A DNA stretch of 64,000 bases, from the sequence record LC739534.1; one strand, written 5' to 3'. The notes beneath the pieces were generated by a model. It was not told the DNA's origin. It searched no databases and worked only from the letters and a program-made list of their open reading frames with translations. Position numbers and translations under genes: made by a program. Shown piece after piece: positions 5,170-34,666 of the stretch; the stretch's first letter is position 1; each line of letters starts with the position of its first letter. The stretch is from Escherichia phage phiWec181.

Positions 5170-6581
5170 ATCATCGCTTTTCCCTATCAATTATTCTATA
5201 TATACCTGTTATTTTTGACACCCCCTTTGGTCAAATATTAATCGGCAAAATATCTGGGGGTACTCTATAAAATGATGCCCCCTGTTCCTGCAATTTATCG
5301 AGGAGAATATCATTCGACTATCATCGGCAAAGAGACAGAAAAGCCTTTGGTAGCAAGGATTTATGGCGAGTACGTCAGGACTGCTTAACGCGAATTTTTC
5401 GGCCCCTCCACTTCTGCGAGCCGGAATCCTCAAATATCAATGAGAATAATTATCATTATCATTCGTATTCAATAACTTAGGCGATCTTTTCCCCTGCTAT
5501 AAGGTCGGGCCTAACTTAACCATCACTTTTCAAACAATCCTTTATCAATCAACTACTTAACAACCTAAACATATGATTACTACGGTGTAAAGGTGCCGCC
5601 CATAACAGACTACCTATAAAATAGATGAGAATGATTATTATTCAGACAATTCTTACAACAAATCGACCAACAAATCAAGAATTTTCTTATTTTTATTCAC
5701 GTTTAAGAGAACGTGCTCAACATTCCGCTACGCGTAACGGTTCGCCCCCAAAAGATTAGCCTTTGCTTTCCTGTATATTTATACACTATGTGCAAGGTGT
5801 CGCTACACGCTCGCCTTGCCCCGCATAATCCTTCACTGTGCTAATGATTTCATAGTGCAACAATAACACTTATTATTATATTACGCTTAATTATTCTTAC
5901 ATACAATGCTAATAATAAGCCAGCGTAATTAGTGTAAGCGTAATACGCTTGCAATAATTGCAAGCTACATAATCACAAGAAATAACTATCACCGATAGTT
6001 ATGATTGTGGGGGTGTAGTTGGCTTATTATTAGCTCGCTACGTGTCCGGCGTAGCGTGCTAATGATGAGGCTTGGAATGATTCATTTTGCAATTATTACA
6101 GTCTTCACTATTTTGATAATAGTTGTTCTTTTAATGGTTTCATTTGTTATCGTTAGTTAGTTGGTTGTTTTGTAGTGTTATCGTTATCTTGCTTAGTATT
6201 CATCACGGTTTGATTGTTTGTCGTTATCAATCATCTTTCTATTATTCCTTTGATTATGATTAGTTTGCTTATTGTTTTAGGTTGTTGGTTGGTTAGTTGT
6301 TGCGAACTATTATCAACATTATAGTTATGCACTTATATTGCATAGATACGCAAGGGTAGATGATAATGGTTATCATTGCACTGGAAAGGAAGAAAACAGC
6401 CTTTTTCGGTTGTTTGTTGTTGGTTGTTGATCTATTTTAACCGCTCTAAATAGCTCTCTAACAGCCTGTTTACCTGGGGTGTATGGTTATTCGTTTGCTG
6501 GTTGATTAGCTCGATACCGCGATTTATTCAGTTTTGTTCTGTGTCGGTTTTTCATAGGCGGAATCTATCAACATTGTTCGG
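5170..6581. other. 1.4 kb non-coding region rich in palindromes and G/T-skewed short repeats
   Basis: No credible ORF; perfect inverted repeats (ATAACTATCACCGATAGTTAT, TTGCAATAATTGCAA, AGCGTAAT/ATTACGCT) and GTTATCGTTA-type repeats on one strand. Confidence 0.6.
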
Positions 6582-6621
6582 GCAAAAAGAAAGGGCGCTT
6601 GGTGCGCCCCTTGTTTTGTTG
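6582..6621 (-). terminator. intrinsic terminator (GGGCGC-N5-GCGCCC hairpin with U-run)
   Basis: GC hairpin 6593-6609 followed on minus strand by TTTCTTTTT; lies just 3' of gene 6626-7045. Confidence 0.6.
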
Positions 6622-25505: not shown

Positions 25506-25828
25506 AAGTTATGAAAATATTCAGCAAACAGGCAACGACCTTCGATTTTATCCGTTTTGGTCATAACGGATTCAGGTTTAAAACCTTCAATCATTTGATC
25601 AATAATGGATAACCACTCCACTGTAGCTTCCCGCTCCTGCTCTTCTGTTAGTTTACGGTAATCTGACACATATTTAGCCCAAATCTTAGATGGGATAAGG
25701 ATATCCCCTCGTTCCACAATACGTGCCTTGAACGCGTACAGTCCAGCACAGATAATCGCGGAGAACGTATCATCCAGGTCTTGCAGATCTTCTACGCCAA
25801 ATTGTAATTCATCATGGATAATTTTCAT
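25496..25828 (-). CDS. hypothetical protein (110 aa)
   Basis: ORF, operon context. Confidence 0.55.
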   Translation of the reverse strand: MKIIHDELQFGVEDLQDLDDTFSAIICAGLYAFKARIVERGDILIPSKIWAKYVSDYRKLTEEQEREATVEWLSIIDQMIEGFKPESVMTKTDKIEGRCLFAEYFHNLWS

Positions 25829-26112
25829 TTTGTTTCTCCCCGCTCTGCGTCTAATTTCAATAAGAAGGCTGCATACTCTTCCGAACCTTTGTGTAAGAAC
25901 ATACGATAAGAACTCACCAGTTTCTTCGTTGTTGTATAACGCTCCATTCCGCCGACAACCCCTGTACCGAGAGTGTAGAGAACAACACCTTCAACCCCAA
26001 CATGGGTTACGACTTCAACCATGTCCGTGTTATCCCAGTGATATTTAGGGGATACAATAAGATCGCCAACTGCTAATTTGATGTTTGCCGCTTCGTCTTG
26101 TGAATAGTACAT
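25825..26112 (-). CDS. hypothetical protein (95 aa), first gene of minus operon
   Basis: ATG at 26112 with GAGAGGAGAAC RBS; promoter upstream. Confidence 0.55.
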   Translation of the reverse strand: MYYSQDEAANIKLAVGDLIVSPKYHWDNTDMVEVVTHVGVEGVVLYTLGTGVVGGMERYTTTKKLVSSYRMFLHKGSEEYAAFLLKLDAERGETK

Positions 26113-26246: not shown

Positions 26247-27200
26247 ATGAAATACGAAGATTTTAAACAAATAGTTAAAGACGATGTGGTATTTGAGAAC
26301 TTACAGGAAGGTTGTGAAGTCTTAGGTTGGACAGAAAGAGATAGAAACTTTGCAAAAATATACGTAATACGTTGTAGTGTTTGTGCCAAAGACCCCGAAA
26401 TGTATGGAGATGGTCTTTTTACAGCTACAAAAGGGCGTTTAGTGAAAGGTCAGAAATGTTGCGCGTGCGCTGTATCCTTTAAATACAGTCAAAACCAACA
26501 CCTAATTCTGCTAAACAGGCATTTAAGTGTCGCAGGGTACAGCATAGTTTCTATTGGTGCTTGGGAGTGTTCTAAGACGAGAATAGAGTTTAGTTGTGAG
26601 AATGGACACACGAAGAACAGAACCCTGGCTCAAGCAAAGGTAGTAGAACCTTGTAAACAGTGTCTTGAAGAAGGCTGTACAAAACACAAACAAGATGAGG
26701 CAGAGGCAAAAATTATGAAGATAATAGAAGATAAATGTTTACCTTATGTATTTGTAGGGTGGGATACTTCTTACAAGAATGTAACTTCAAAATTCAACCT
26801 CATCTGTTCGGATCACGGTTTAAAAACAATAAGATACGCTTGTTTCCTAAATGGTCATTTTTGTAACGAGTGTTCTGGTAGAAATTGCCTAAGTCTTTAT
26901 TTATTAGGAGTTTATGATAGAGACTTGTTGGTAGGTTTAAAATTTGGCATCTCTCAGAGTCCAGTAAGAAGGGTTCAACAGTTAAATAAAAGGAACTTAT
27001 TTAAATGTAAAATACTACAGATTTGGACTTTTACATCACATGATCAAGCTGTACGGATGGAAACATTATTAAAGAACACATTGCGAACTGGAATATTTAC
27101 TAAAAGAGAGATGAAAGATGGTCATACAGAAACCACAGAAGTTACTAATTTAGAAACCATAATGGACCTTATGACCTCATCTCATGGATTGGTTAGTTAA
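26247..27200 (+). CDS. zinc-ribbon repeat protein with C-terminal T5orf172/GIY-YIG-like domain (317 aa)
   Basis: RBS AAGGAGGAAAC; Cys pairs; LKFGISQSPVRRVQQL...KDGHTETT, paralog of 21663-22679. Confidence 0.6.
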   Translation: MKYEDFKQIVKDDVVFENLQEGCEVLGWTERDRNFAKIYVIRCSVCAKDPEMYGDGLFTATKGRLVKGQKCCACAVSFKYSQNQHLILLNRHLSVAGYSIVSIGAWECSKTRIEFSCENGHTKNRTLAQAKVVEPCKQCLEEGCTKHKQDEAEAKIMKIIEDKCLPYVFVGWDTSYKNVTSKFNLICSDHGLKTIRYACFLNGHFCNECSGRNCLSLYLLGVYDRDLLVGLKFGISQSPVRRVQQLNKRNLFKCKILQIWTFTSHDQAVRMETLLKNTLRTGIFTKREMKDGHTETTEVTNLETIMDLMTSSHGLVS

Positions 27201-27495
27201 CAAAAACCTTAACATTTCCGATGTTCTTGCTGACTTCTTGTGAGAACATTGAAAGTACCTTGTCAAGCAGTTTTACTAATTCATTTGTAATTTGTTCCTC
27301 TGAACGAGAAGAAGTAAGTACCTTACTCTCACCAACGATGTGCATCACCTTGATAGGAGCATTCAGGATAACATTGTGCTTTTCATCTTCTTCGAAAGAT
27401 GCTAACCACTTCTCATTATTCCCGTGCAAAGCCACGATAACACCAAAACCGTTAATAGTTTGTGAAATGTTCTTAGTTGCTAATGTAATGTTCAT
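27193..27495 (-). CDS. hypothetical protein (100 aa), convergent
   Basis: ATG at 27495 with AGAGAGGTG RBS. Confidence 0.5.
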   Translation of the reverse strand: MNITLATKNISQTINGFGVIVALHGNNEKWLASFEEDEKHNVILNAPIKVMHIVGESKVLTSSRSEEQITNELVKLLDKVLSMFSQEVSKNIGNVKVFVN

Positions 27496-27554
27496 TGTTC
27501 ACCTCTCTTAATAATGTAGGGCTATTGTACACTAAAAATATTTCAGGTCAAGTG

Positions 27555-27582
27555 TTGACAAGCTTTTTGGTTCTGTTATGAT
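27555..27582 (+). promoter_or_regulatory. sigma70-like promoter (TTGACA, 16 nt, TATGAT)
   Basis: Read directly upstream of 27613. Confidence 0.55.
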
Positions 27583-27612
27583 TAGCTCATACTAAATGAG
27601 AGGAGAAAACAA

Positions 27613-28050
27613 ATGCAAAACATCAAACTGACTTGGACCGAAGCTAAAGAAGCAATGAAGGAAGGTAGACGTGTTAAACACGAGTATTTCTGTGGTGGGG
27701 AATGGTTTGAGATGCAATATGGTGTTATTCTGGACGAACATGGTTATAATATGACTGATTGGTATCGTGACGAAGCTTGGCAGGATGATGGTTGGTCTGT
27801 GGTTGAGAAAGAAGGTAATGAGGAAGAAGGACTGTTGTCTAATGTAGAGCGCGAAATGCGGGAAACAAAGGTGCCCGAACTGGACTACCATCACCTGGAA
27901 CTTCTTGTGGCAGCATCTTTCGCTACTGGAGATACAATGTGGCAAACTCCGGTGTCCCGTGTCGATAACCAAAATAAACCGTCTGCCCGTAATCACAAGC
28001 TTTACAAAGGTAAAGGTCATAACAAACTGAAGAAAGGAAAGAAGAAATGA
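27613..28050 (+). CDS. DUF2829-like protein (145 aa)
   Basis: RBS GAGAGGAG; N-terminus TWTEAKEAMKEGRRVKHEY...GEW resembles DUF2829 as I recall it; Lys-rich tail. Confidence 0.5.
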   Translation: MQNIKLTWTEAKEAMKEGRRVKHEYFCGGEWFEMQYGVILDEHGYNMTDWYRDEAWQDDGWSVVEKEGNEEEGLLSNVEREMRETKVPELDYHHLELLVAASFATGDTMWQTPVSRVDNQNKPSARNHKLYKGKGHNKLKKGKKK

Positions 28051-28193
28051 TCTACAAAAACAAGTTCACTGGTTGTCTACGTAAGTTTGTCGATAAAAAA
28101 GGTTATGTTTCGCTTGACAACGGGACTACATGGGTGCAGAATGGGACTTCAGAACAATTGATCAAGGCTCTGCCTTACTACGAGGAGGTTTAA

Positions 28194-33064: not shown

Positions 33065-34666
33065 GTGTCTAATACTTTGAGTTTCACTCCAACCGAAGAG
33101 CAATTTGCTATTGAGCGTGCTTTCGGGGAAAACCGTTTTGTAACTATTCAAGCAAAATCTGGTTCGGGGAAAACATCTACTCTATACATGTTGGCAAATG
33201 GCACAGACAAGAGCATCCTGTACCTGGCATTCAATAAGAGCATGGCGGAAGAGGCGCGTCGCAAGATGCCGCACAATGTAGAGTGTCGAACTCTGCACTC
33301 AATCTGCTATCAGAAGCTTCCACAAAACTTACGTCACAAACTCTCGCGTCCTGAAGGGAAGTATGTGAATGTGGCGGGAACAGGTAGCGAAATTGCCAAG
33401 AAGTTTAAGATCCAAAACCTTATTGATAAAAACGGAAAGACTTTGGTCACTCGTGCTATGATCGGTTTAATGGTTAAACAAACTTTGGCTAAATATGAGT
33501 TTTCAGATGATGAGCATATCTCTTTGAAACACTTCCCTAAAATGCACATCTCTGATCTGAAACGTAAGAATGTGAATGAGAATAAGCTGATCGCAGAAGT
33601 CGTTAAATATGCAAAACAATTGTGGCGTGAGCGTATTGATCCTAACTCGGAAACGATCATGACTCATGACACCTATGTGAAACTGTTCGAACTATCGGGC
33701 GAAGATTTAGGGTATGATATCATCTTTGGTGATGAGTTCCAGGATGTTAACCCTGCATTCCTGTCTATCCTACGTAACGCAGAAAAGGCCAGTCGTATTG
33801 TGGTTGTAGGCGATGAGTTCCAGAGTATTTATCAGTTCCGAGGTAGTCAGAACATGATGAAAGAGACGGCTCAATATGGTGTAGAATTACCATTGACAGC
33901 ATGTTTCCGTTTTGGTCCTAAAGTGGCAGACATTGCTAATGCGATCCTTAGCGATAAAACTCCACTGGCCCATCCACTGGTAGGGAAAGGGTATAACACG
34001 GTGACAGGTAGCTTCCACTCGGATATAGTGGACTTCTCCAAACCGTACACAATCATCTTCCGTAAAAACCTGACGTTGCTTATGGATGCAATGGATCGTA
34101 TTGCGAACGGAGAAGATATCAATATTAACGTTGACACCAAAGATTTTATTGCTATGGTGGACAGTGTGAATGCGTTGCGTCGAGGAGATATTGACAAAGT
34201 GAAGCATGAAACCGTTCTACCGTATGCAGACTGGCAGGAGTTTGTGGATTGTGCGGAATCAGATCCAGACGCTAAACGTCTACTGAATATTGTTGTTTCA
34301 GGTAAGGCTAACAACATTGCGTACACACTCCGTATGCACCGTAACTCACCTACAGCAAAGGTGACACTGACCACAGCACACAAATCGAAAGGTTTGGAAT
34401 GGGACCAAGTTATTGTTGCAAATGACTTCCCTTCGAACTATGATAAGAAGACACGCGAGTGGGTAGGGCTGGAAGAATCTGAACGTAACCTTCTATATGT
34501 TGCTCACACACGTTGTATTAAATGTTTGCAGTGGAATGAGACAGTGCATGAGATCTTAACCATGCAGCAATTAGGAGGAGACACATCTCCTAAAATGACG
34601 GAAGAAGATGAGATGGTTGCAGCATTGGCTCGTAAGATCAAGCAGATTCGATGCGAGGAGTATTAA
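33065..34666 (+). CDS. SF1 (UvrD/Rep/PcrA-like) DNA helicase
   Basis: GTG start with AAGGAGGA RBS; motifs AKSGSGKT, GDEFQD, VVGDEFQSIYQFRG, TAHKSKGLEWD. Confidence 0.8.
   Translation: MSNTLSFTPTEEQFAIERAFGENRFVTIQAKSGSGKTSTLYMLANGTDKSILYLAFNKSMAEEARRKMPHNVECRTLHSICYQKLPQNLRHKLSRPEGKYVNVAGTGSEIAKKFKIQNLIDKNGKTLVTRAMIGLMVKQTLAKYEFSDDEHISLKHFPKMHISDLKRKNVNENKLIAEVVKYAKQLWRERIDPNSETIMTHDTYVKLFELSGEDLGYDIIFGDEFQDVNPAFLSILRNAEKASRIVVVGDEFQSIYQFRGSQNMMKETAQYGVELPLTACFRFGPKVADIANAILSDKTPLAHPLVGKGYNTVTGSFHSDIVDFSKPYTIIFRKNLTLLMDAMDRIANGEDININVDTKDFIAMVDSVNALRRGDIDKVKHETVLPYADWQEFVDCAESDPDAKRLLNIVVSGKANNIAYTLRMHRNSPTAKVTLTTAHKSKGLEWDQVIVANDFPSNYDKKTREWVGLEESERNLLYVAHTRCIKCLQWNETVHEILTMQQLGGDTSPKMTEEDEMVAALARKIKQIRCEEY

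What the first reader, a model, noticed from the sequence alone, without database searches (positions are those of the whole stretch)
27613..28050. DUF2829-like protein as a possible immune-signal sponge
The N-terminal ~50 residues (TWTEAKEAMKEGRRVKHEY...GEW) resemble DUF2829, the family that I recall includes the Thoeris anti-defence protein Tad2; it has its own near-consensus promoter and a Lys-rich tail.
Basis: inference. Interest (0 to 1): 0.5.

Follow-up and report, generated by a model that had tools for sequence, protein, structure and literature searches.

The report
Mini-Tad2 phage protein with basic tail
This early gene of a large E. coli phage encodes a stripped-down relative of the Tad2 "immune-signal sponge" fold joined to a highly conserved lysine-rich tail, which makes it a good but unproven candidate for a new kind of phage counter-defence protein.

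The parts
27555..27582 (+). Sigma-70 early-type promoter: TTGACA, 16-nt spacer ending in TGT, then TATGAT (extended -10)
   Evidence: 11 of 12 consensus matches with TG. The -35, TG and -10 are invariant in 8 orthologous intergenic regions.
27524..27551 (-). Divergent promoter-like site facing the DUF7325 gene (27193-27495, -)
   Evidence: TTGACC-16-TACAAT, 10 of 12. The divergent arrangement DUF7325(-) | this gene(+) is conserved. Consensus match only.
27598..27606 (+). Shine-Dalgarno GAGAGGAGA, 6 nt upstream of the ATG
   Evidence: Read from the sequence. GAGGAGA is invariant in all 8 orthologues.
27613..28050 (+). Coding sequence, 145 aa plus stop; member of phrog_22208
   Evidence: E=1.8e-79, full length. 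21 close homologues. Purifying selection in every region.
27613..27813 (+). N-terminal 'mini-Tad2' domain, residues 1-67 (alpha1 8-16, strands 20-23, 32-35, 38-41, short helix 55-58, strand 61-64); net charge -7
27814..27885 (+). Acidic, indel-rich linker, residues 68-91 (net charge -5), with a predicted helix at 73-84
   Evidence: Alignments A1 and the orthologue set. Low pLDDT. Charge.
27886..27948 (+). Conserved helix segment D[FY]xxLExx[VI]xA, residues 90-104, followed by a variable stretch
   Evidence: D91, E96 and A101 are invariant across 9 diverse orthologues. Helix 92-104 in the model.
27949..28047 (+). Polybasic C-terminal tail, residues 113-145 (net charge +11). Core motif KGKGHNKLKKGKKK at the extreme C-terminus (core codons 27988-28047).
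   Evidence: Invariant in 21 homologues. Window versus phAPEC8 core: 5 synonymous and 0 nonsynonymous differences. The same tail ends the unrelated phrog_27594 proteins.
28047..28193 (+). Downstream 48-aa ORF (phrog_2381) whose ATG overlaps the stop codon (ATGA). Its likely Shine-Dalgarno AAGGAA (28034-28039) lies inside the tail codons K141-G142-K143.
   Evidence: The overlap is conserved in orthologues. The ORF is not annotated in the phiWec179 record. The SD assignment is inference.

Best explanation
This is a genuine early gene and the first gene of the rightward block of small early genes in a Phapecoctavirus. It is transcribed from its own conserved strong sigma-70 promoter and encodes a two-module protein. 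Module 1 (residues 1-67) is a minimal version of the Tad2/DUF2829 fold: helix alpha1 plus the antiparallel sheet, without the beta2-beta3 insertion. Module 2 is an acidic linker and helix ending in a portable polybasic tail, KGKGHNKLKKGKKK. The most likely function (inferred, not shown) is early counter-defence or host takeover. The mini-Tad2 domain would oligomerise and bind a small molecule in the same place as Tad2's pocket, because the family's conserved residues lie in the beta1-beta2 loop, the beta3-beta4 turn and the segment before the last helix. The chemistry is remodelled, with aromatic walls (Y25, F26, Y45, W50, W56, W61) plus H23, E30 and E42 in place of R22, N26, K28, S76, T78 and D79. 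That points to a ligand other than canonical 3'cADPR/gcADPR. The tail would tether the protein to a polyanion (nucleic acid, ribosome or membrane). Shown: gene, promoter, fold, remote homology, purifying selection, portability of the tail. Inferred: oligomerisation, ligand binding, anti-defence role, tethering.
Against: Pfam's Tad2-like model does not recognise the protein. The polar and basic residues that bind the ligand in SPO1 Tad2 (N26, S76, T78, D79; also R22 and K28, invariant in my DUF2829 set) are not conserved. The literature says the gcADPR site is conserved in about 99% of Tad2 proteins. The beta2-beta3 insertion with helix alpha2, which builds the V-shaped dimer of the tetramer and the cyclic-dinucleotide site, is absent, so the quaternary structure is uncertain. 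Known sponges have positively charged pockets, whereas this family's invariant polar residues are His, Glu and Glu, and the domain has net charge -7. This is a weak argument, since SPO1 Tad2 is itself -5. No known sponge carries an 80-residue extension with a polybasic tail. There are no experimental data for any member of the mini-family or for Phapecoctavirus early genes. The C-terminal half of the profile alignment is of low confidence.
Confidence: 0.38

Rival explanations
1. A tail-centred host-takeover factor. The conserved polybasic tail, with the preceding helix, is the effector and binds DNA, RNA, ribosomes or anionic membrane early in infection. The mini-Tad2 domain serves only as an oligomerisation or regulatory module, or as a cation- or peptide-binding module. 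An acidic, aromatic surface could even dock Lys-rich tails head-to-tail. No immune signal is sequestered.
For: The tail is the most constrained part of the protein: it is invariant in 21 homologues, and the 20-codon core shows 0 nonsynonymous against 5 synonymous changes. It is portable, ending the unrelated phrog_27594 protein in about 31 Klebsiella, Proteus and Raoultella myoviruses and matching the C-terminus of phrog_21279. Other mini-Tad2 family members end in SEC-C zinc motifs or short basic patches. The protein has a strong charge dipole, -14 then +11. The N-domain's invariant residues are acidic and aromatic rather than basic.
Against: Most family members are standalone 59-70 aa proteins without any tail, so the domain has a function of its own. 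The tail has no detectable relative of known function in the PDB, Pfam or NCBIfam. The one specific lead, the ribosome-binding tail of ArfA, failed (E=7.2). Part of the constraint on the last codons may come from the overlapping Shine-Dalgarno and start of the next gene.
Confidence: 0.28
2. A canonical Tad2. It forms a tetramer, binds 3'cADPR/2'cADPR (gcADPR) in the same way as SPO1 Tad2 and blocks type I Thoeris.
For: Same fold. The aromatic positions equivalent to W25, W73 and W85 are retained. Early expression.
Against: The equivalents of N26, S76, T78 and D79 are lost, and R22 and K28 are replaced. The alpha2 insertion needed for the V-shaped dimer is absent. PF11195 does not hit.
Confidence: 0.07
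3. A protein-binding inhibitor built on the DUF2829 fold. It would block a host defence or housekeeping protein by direct binding, as once proposed for the DUF2829 protein AcrIIA7 against Cas9, and would not sequester a small molecule.
Against: Direct binding of AcrIIA7 to Cas9 was never shown, and the family is now regarded as sponges. Tad2 and AcrIIA7 are grouped as one anti-defence family. E. coli hosts of this phage do not carry type II CRISPR-Cas (general knowledge, not tested here).
Confidence: 0.12
4. Not a functional gene: a chance ORF, or a decaying remnant of a DUF2829 gene.
For: There is no Pfam or NCBIfam hit for the protein itself.
Against: Promoter and Shine-Dalgarno are conserved. 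Synteny and architecture are conserved across the Stephanstirmvirinae. dN/dS is well below 1 in all regions. The domain model is of high confidence. The domain has 354 representative clusters.
Confidence: 0.01

Closest known systems
Tad2 (SPO1 gp34.65) / Pfam PF11195 'Tad2-like' (formerly DUF2829)
   Same: Same core fold: N-terminal helix alpha1 packed on an antiparallel sheet, with a short helix before the last strand. Demonstrable remote homology (hhalign 94%). Aromatic residues are retained at the positions of W25, W73 and W85. It is a phage-encoded, small, early-expressed domain.
   Different: About 65 aa instead of 85-105 aa. The beta2-beta3 insertion (SPO1 residues 36-59, helix alpha2, dimer interface) is missing. 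The hallmark motifs R-x-G-W-N-G-K-G-M and W-x-x-S-x-T-D-x-L-A-x-D-W are replaced by H-x-Y-F-[TSC]-x-x-E and [FW][WF]...W..GW. Pfam's model does not reach it. It carries an extra linker and polybasic tail of about 80 aa.
ModTad2 (Myroides odoratus prophage Tad2, PDB 9eib, His-ADPR complex)
   Different: ModTad2 keeps the canonical GWNGKGM and W..S.SD.LAEDW motifs. The query does not.
AcrIIA7 / HgmTad2 (PDB 8kbi)
   Different: It has the longest beta2-beta5 insertion (residues 32-72), which forms the cyclic-dinucleotide site. The query has none.
phrog_3474 standalone mini-proteins (59-70 aa) of T5-like, T4-like, Felix-O1-like and rV5-like enterobacterial phages
   Same: The same mini-Tad2 domain (E=2.7e-30), with the same invariant residues A11, G18, H23, F26, E30, E42, G44 and W61. 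A few are named DUF2829 in UniProt.
   Different: They have no linker, helix or polybasic tail. All are uncharacterised.
phrog_27594 (e.g. Proteus phage Mydo gp025; Klebsiella phage KB57 type)
   Same: The same extreme C-terminal tail, F[KR]I.KGRGHNKLKKKKKKRK. It is also a small protein in an early-type gene block, and its Lys codons also overlap the RBS and start of the next gene.
   Different: The N-terminal 75 residues are unrelated, with no Tad2-like domain and no Pfam match.

Membership tests
Pfam PF11195 Tad2-like (DUF2829) | Match to the family HMM at or above Pfam's gathering score | tested here: not met
   No Pfam family is reported for the protein, even at E<=10. 54 of 141 relatives hit PF11195 only sub-threshold, best E=2.9e-4.
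Pfam PF11195 Tad2-like (DUF2829) | Tad2 fold (alpha1 plus antiparallel beta-sheet plus short helix before the last strand) | tested here: met
Pfam PF11195 Tad2-like (DUF2829) | Detectable common ancestry (profile-profile) | tested here: met
   hhalign 94.2%, P=1.1e-7, score 41.1, against at most 15.1 in reversed and shuffled controls. Reciprocal HMM best E=2.3e-8.
Tad2 (functional family: gcADPR sponge) | beta1-beta2 loop motif R-x-G-W-N-G-K-[GN]-M with ligand contacts W25 and N26 | tested here: not met
   The query has H23-E-Y-F26-C27-G-G-E30-W. The aromatic is kept (F26), but Asn is replaced by Cys (T/S/C/A in the family), R22 by His, and K28/N29 by Gly/Glu.
Tad2 (functional family: gcADPR sponge) | C-terminal motif W73-x-x-S76-x-T78-D79...W85 (ligand and water contacts) | tested here: not met
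   W50 and W61 align with W73 and W85, but the positions of S76, T78 and D79 are occupied by variable residues (query R52/D53, E54, A55). This part of the alignment is of low confidence.
Tad2 (functional family: gcADPR sponge) | beta2-beta3 insertion with helix alpha2 forming the V-shaped dimer of the homotetramer | tested here: not met
   The family is 25-30 residues shorter exactly here. In the model, beta2 (32-35) joins beta3 (38-41) by a 2-residue turn.
Tad2 (functional family: gcADPR sponge) | Homotetramer with two inter-protomer pockets | not testable with these tools
   Only monomer prediction was available. It needs AlphaFold-Multimer/AlphaFold3 or SEC-MALS.
Tad2 (functional family: gcADPR sponge) | Binds and sequesters 3'cADPR/2'cADPR (or His-ADPR, N7-cADPR, cNMP, CDN) and rescues phage from Thoeris, CBASS or Pycsar | not testable with these tools
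   Biochemical and genetic assays are required. No published data on this family were found.
Phage immune-signal sponges (general class, traits listed in PMC12265669) | Short protein (often <100 aa), homo-oligomer, positively charged pockets at protomer interfaces | tested here: inconclusive
   The domain is sponge-sized, and most relatives are 59-70 aa, but this protein is 145 aa. Oligomer and pocket were not testable. The invariant polar residues are His, Glu and Glu, and the domain has net charge -7, though SPO1 Tad2 is -5 overall.
PHROG phrog_22208 | Full-length match to the family profile | tested here: met
   E=1.8e-79, residues 1-145 on profile positions 4-147 of 147. Function unknown.

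The most novel reading that the evidence does not exclude
The mini-Tad2 family (at least 354 clusters, common in virulent enterobacterial phages) is a new specificity class of the Tad2 scaffold. Its acidic and aromatic pocket (H23, E30, E42 plus Tyr, Phe and Trp) would capture a signal or metabolite that no known sponge binds, for example a cationic or metal-bridged ligand. In Stephanstirmvirinae it has been fused to a portable localisation tail, KGxGHNKLxKxKKK, which unrelated early proteins of rV5-like phages share and which docks them onto one cellular polyanionic target such as the ribosome or the incoming DNA. That would make it a 'tethered sponge' acting at the site where the immune signal is made.
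Probability: 0.13. Interest if true: 0.78.

Novelty: new variant of a known kind. Interest (0 to 1): 0.52.

Why it matters
Tad2-type sponges are among the most widespread phage counter-defences, and their scaffold is being found to bind ever more immune signals. A large, uncharacterised sister family would be an obvious place to look for a new sponge specificity, or for a non-sponge use of the fold. This one keeps the fold and the location of the conserved site but swaps the ligand-contact chemistry and drops the oligomerisation insert. It is present in many therapeutic-type coliphages and Klebsiella phages (rV5-like, T5-like, T4-like, Felix-O1-like), so its function bears on phage host range. 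The portable polybasic tail is a separate small discovery: a conserved C-terminal module shared by unrelated early proteins, which suggests a common cellular docking site. All of this can be tested directly with standard co-expression, binding and localisation assays.

Tried and rejected
(1) A direct Pfam, NCBIfam or PDB sequence match of the protein: none. The only PDB phmmer hits were influenza HA2 coiled-coil segments at E>=0.12 against the linker and helix, which I take as chance. (2) Word-indexed protein searches with the 67-aa domain or the 60-aa C-terminal module returned almost nothing, so the exhaustive HMMER search was needed. (3) Three very long proteins high in that search (P0024, P0055, P0079) are repeat proteins with Tudor/Agenet-like GDRVEARYkGGskWYkGkI units. 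Each repeat matches only weakly (per-repeat E 0.002-6), so I rejected them as family members. (4) Tail homologues by tblastn in phages gave only Phapecoctavirus orthologues, because the low-complexity filter masks the Lys run. The exact back-translated motif in IMG/VR gave only one locus. A generalised motif in metagenomes succeeded. (5) A profile of the C-terminal module against the PDB and Pfam found nothing. (6) The ArfA-like ribosome-channel tail, recalled from memory, gave BLASTP E=7.2 and is a compositional resemblance only. (7) 'An acidic domain argues against nucleotide binding': the family mean net charge is -4.2 against -1.3 for DUF2829, but SPO1 Tad2 is itself -5, so overall charge does not discriminate. 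(8) 'Tail invariance is a DNA-level element or recent transfer': rejected in general, because synonymous sites vary. However, the window and L092 do share an identical tail at the DNA level, which points to mosaicism, and the last codons double as the RBS of the next gene. (9) The afdb50 fold library was unavailable. (10) There is no canonical DUF2829 gene and no paralogue of the mini-domain in the 64-kb window. (11) My DUF2829 comparison set was collected using the two hallmark motifs, so its near-100% conservation at those motifs is partly ascertainment. The claim that the site is conserved rests on the literature.

Full report
OBSERVATION. The window is 99.8-100% identical to Escherichia phages phiWec179 and phiWec186 (Stephanstirmvirinae, Phapecoctavirus; E. 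coli myoviruses of about 154 kb), where the gene is annotated only as 'hypothetical protein'. The promoter is real as a consensus match: TTGACA, a 16-nt spacer ending in TGT, then TATGAT, at 27555-27582, 11 of 12 with an extended -10 TG, the best site in the surrounding 5 kb. It is also phylogenetically footprinted. In 8 orthologous intergenic regions the -35, the TG, the -10 and the Shine-Dalgarno GAGGAGA are invariant, including in one locus (L094) whose upstream sequence is otherwise unrelated. The tail is strongly basic: residues 113-145 have 12 K/R against 1 D/E.

GENE AND SELECTION. The gene is the first of the rightward block of small early-type genes that runs to the DNA helicase at 33065. 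It sits at a divergent junction opposite a DUF7325 gene (27193-27495, -). This arrangement, with a 48-aa ORF whose ATG overlaps the stop codon (ATGA), is conserved in every orthologous locus fetched. A Nei-Gojobori codon analysis shows purifying selection throughout. N-domain dN/dS is 0.17-0.41, and the tail is 0.02-0.23 within Phapecoctavirus. It is a real, expressed, functional gene.

HOW IT DIFFERS FROM TAD2. I recovered the sequences of the solved Tad2 proteins and verified the SPO1 numbering against the ligand residues named in the structure paper: W25, N26, I63, T65, D67, H71, W73, S76, T78 and D79 (10.1101/2023.05.01.538930). In my DUF2829 set R22, W25, N26, G27, K28, M30, W73, S76, D79 and W85 are nearly invariant. 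That set was collected using those same motifs, so this is partly ascertainment. However, Li et al. independently state that the gcADPR site is conserved in about 99% of Tad2 proteins (10.1101/2023.11.15.567273). The query family has a different signature: EA..AM..G.KV.H.YF...E...M..G.I.DE.GY..[FW][WF]...W..GW.I. Its near-invariant residues are A11, G18, H23, F26, E30, E42, G44 and W61. Mapped onto Tad2, F26 takes the place of W25, W50 of W73 and W61 of W85, so the aromatic 'walls' persist. N26 becomes C/T/S/A, R22 becomes His, K28/N29 become Gly/Glu, and the S76, T78 and D79 positions are variable. The family is also 25-30 residues shorter, exactly at the beta2-beta3 insertion (SPO1 residues 36-59). 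That insertion carries helix alpha2, which forms the V-shaped dimer of the Tad2 tetramer and, in HgmTad2 and SptTad2, the cyclic-dinucleotide site. The family's own conserved residues fall in the beta1-beta2 loop, the beta3-beta4 turn and the segment before the last helix. The structure paper lists these same elements as lining the Tad2 pocket. This suggests, by inference, the same site with different chemistry.

THE C-TERMINAL MODULE. In 21 homologues whose N-domains fall to about 60% identity, residues ~95-145 are almost invariant. Across Stephanstirmvirinae, including Klebsiella phage 05F01 and two metagenomic lineages, the architecture holds: mini-Tad2, acidic linker, D[FY]xxLExx[VI]xA helix, variable stretch, then a terminal [HY]x[KL]xKG[KRN]GHNKL[KQ]K[GR]KKK. 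Window versus phAPEC8 shows 5 synonymous and 0 nonsynonymous differences in the 20-codon core. Distant lineages keep the peptide with different codons. Selection therefore acts on the peptide. The last codons (AAG AAA GGA AAG AAG AAA TGA) also provide the likely Shine-Dalgarno and the overlapping start of the next gene. The tail is portable. PHROG profiles of two unrelated families match it at their C-termini. A metagenome scan for the back-translated motif recovered the expected orthologues and also a 102-111 aa protein with an unrelated N-terminus and the ending F[KR]I.KGRGHNKLKKKKKKRK. This is phrog_27594 (E=6e-69). It has no Pfam domain and is conserved in about 31 Klebsiella, Proteus and Raoultella myoviruses such as KB57 and Mydo (gp025), again in an early-type gene block and again overlapping the next gene's RBS. 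Other mini-Tad2 proteins end in SEC-C zinc motifs or short basic patches. The module has no relative in the PDB, Pfam or NCBIfam, and a remembered resemblance to the ArfA tail failed the test (E=7.2). The whole protein is a charge dipole, -14 over residues 1-112 and +11 over the last 33.

CONTEXT. The window has no canonical DUF2829 gene and no paralogue. Distant tail-bearing homologues (P0029, P0031) occupy the same kind of junction in other phages of about 150 kb, whose early regions carry Gad2 (anti-Gabija), NADAR, an NMN transporter, AAA_28 and RNA ligase. The mini-domain occurs in at least 500 phage records (probably a cap). These are almost all virulent enterobacterial phages: rV5-like, T4-like Klebsiella phages, Felix-O1-like and T5-like. 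In the T5-like phage SH9 it lies in a small-gene block divergent from the A1 'DNA transfer protein' block, which is suggestive of early timing but not decisive. The literature shows that the Tad2 scaffold has been re-targeted to 3'cADPR, His-ADPR, N7-cADPR, cUMP/cCMP and cyclic dinucleotides (PMC12393519). It also shows that known sponges are short homo-oligomers with positively charged inter-protomer pockets (PMC12265669). I found no study of this mini-family or of Phapecoctavirus early genes. AntiDefenseFinder lists only the MazG-like Atd1 for Phapecoctavirus.

MECHANISM. My best-supported reading (confidence 0.38) is an early counter-defence or host-takeover protein. Its mini-Tad2 domain would oligomerise and bind a small ligand at the Tad2-equivalent site with remodelled chemistry, so not canonical gcADPR. 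Its tail would tether it to a polyanion. Gene, promoter, fold, homology, selection and tail portability are shown. Oligomerisation, ligand binding, the anti-defence role and tethering are inferred. Four rivals remain: a tail-centred nucleic-acid, ribosome or membrane factor in which the domain is accessory (0.28); a protein-binding inhibitor on the DUF2829 fold (0.12); a canonical gcADPR Tad2 (0.07); and a non-functional ORF (0.01).

MEMBERSHIP AND NOVELTY. It shares fold and ancestry with PF11195 but fails that family's HMM threshold. It also fails three sequence and structure hallmarks of functional Tad2: both ligand motifs and the alpha2 insertion. I therefore do not file it as a Tad2. It is a divergent sister subfamily, 'mini-Tad2', that grades into PF11195 at its edge, here fused to a novel portable tail. 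That makes it a new variant of a known kind. Interest is moderate (0.52). It is a concrete, testable candidate for a new sponge specificity in clinically relevant phage groups, and it comes with an unexplained conserved tail module, but there is no functional evidence yet.

Noticed in passing
window 26247-27200 (+): A 317-aa gene with a CapR-homology domain and a GIY-YIG/T5orf172-like (MUG113) region, phrog_681 'endonuclease'. It looks like a homing endonuclease inserted between the Phage_tudor gene and the DUF7325 gene. It is absent from the same junction in L092, L095 and phAPEC8, and it overlaps the convergent DUF7325 gene by 8 bp.
   Followed up: partly
window 28047-28193 (+): A conserved 48-aa ORF (phrog_2381) whose ATG overlaps the stop of the studied gene (ATGA). 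It is annotated in phAPEC8, phiWec188 and TSP7_1 but missing from the phiWec179 record. Its likely Shine-Dalgarno AAGGAA (28034-28039) lies within the Lys/Gly codons of the tail, so the two genes are probably translationally coupled.
   Followed up: partly
window ~5190-6620: About 1.4 kb with no ORF of 75 aa or more in an otherwise tightly packed genome. It has no annotated CDS, no tRNA and no Rfam family, only weak repeats, and a terminator-like hairpin at 6590-6612. Its nature is unknown.
   Followed up: partly
P0024, P0079 (proteins from the representative search): Giant eukaryote-like proteins (about 2,500 aa) with 8-18 Tudor/Agenet-like repeats (GDRVEARYkGGskWYkGkI...) score highly against the mini-Tad2 profile through many weak repeat matches. 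This is probably analogy between small beta-rich modules and not homology.
   Followed up: partly
L089 1-363 and 12292-12429; L090 1-327, 10813-11880, 12376-12468: Early regions of related myoviruses of about 150 kb that carry tail-bearing homologues also encode Gad2 (anti-Gabija), NADAR, an NMN transporter, an AAA_28 (NadR-like) protein and an RNA ligase. This looks like an anti-defence and NAD-related gene neighbourhood.
   Followed up: no
window 27988-28047 versus L092 3400-3459: The tail-core DNA is identical between the window and the L092 phage, while the N-domains of the same two genes differ at 76% of synonymous sites. This indicates a recombination breakpoint inside the gene (mosaicism).
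   Followed up: partly
Klebsiella phage vB_KpnM_KB57 (KT934943.1) 137321-137506 and 138552-138827: In KB57-type Vequintavirinae a standalone mini-Tad2 gene and the unrelated tail-carrier gene (phrog_27594) lie about 1 kb apart in the same early region. In Stephanstirmvirinae the domain and the tail are in one protein.
   Followed up: no
window 25825-26112 (-): A 95-aa protein matching Pfam Phage_tudor (PF24144, E=1.4e-24), two genes upstream of the finding on the opposite strand.
   Followed up: no
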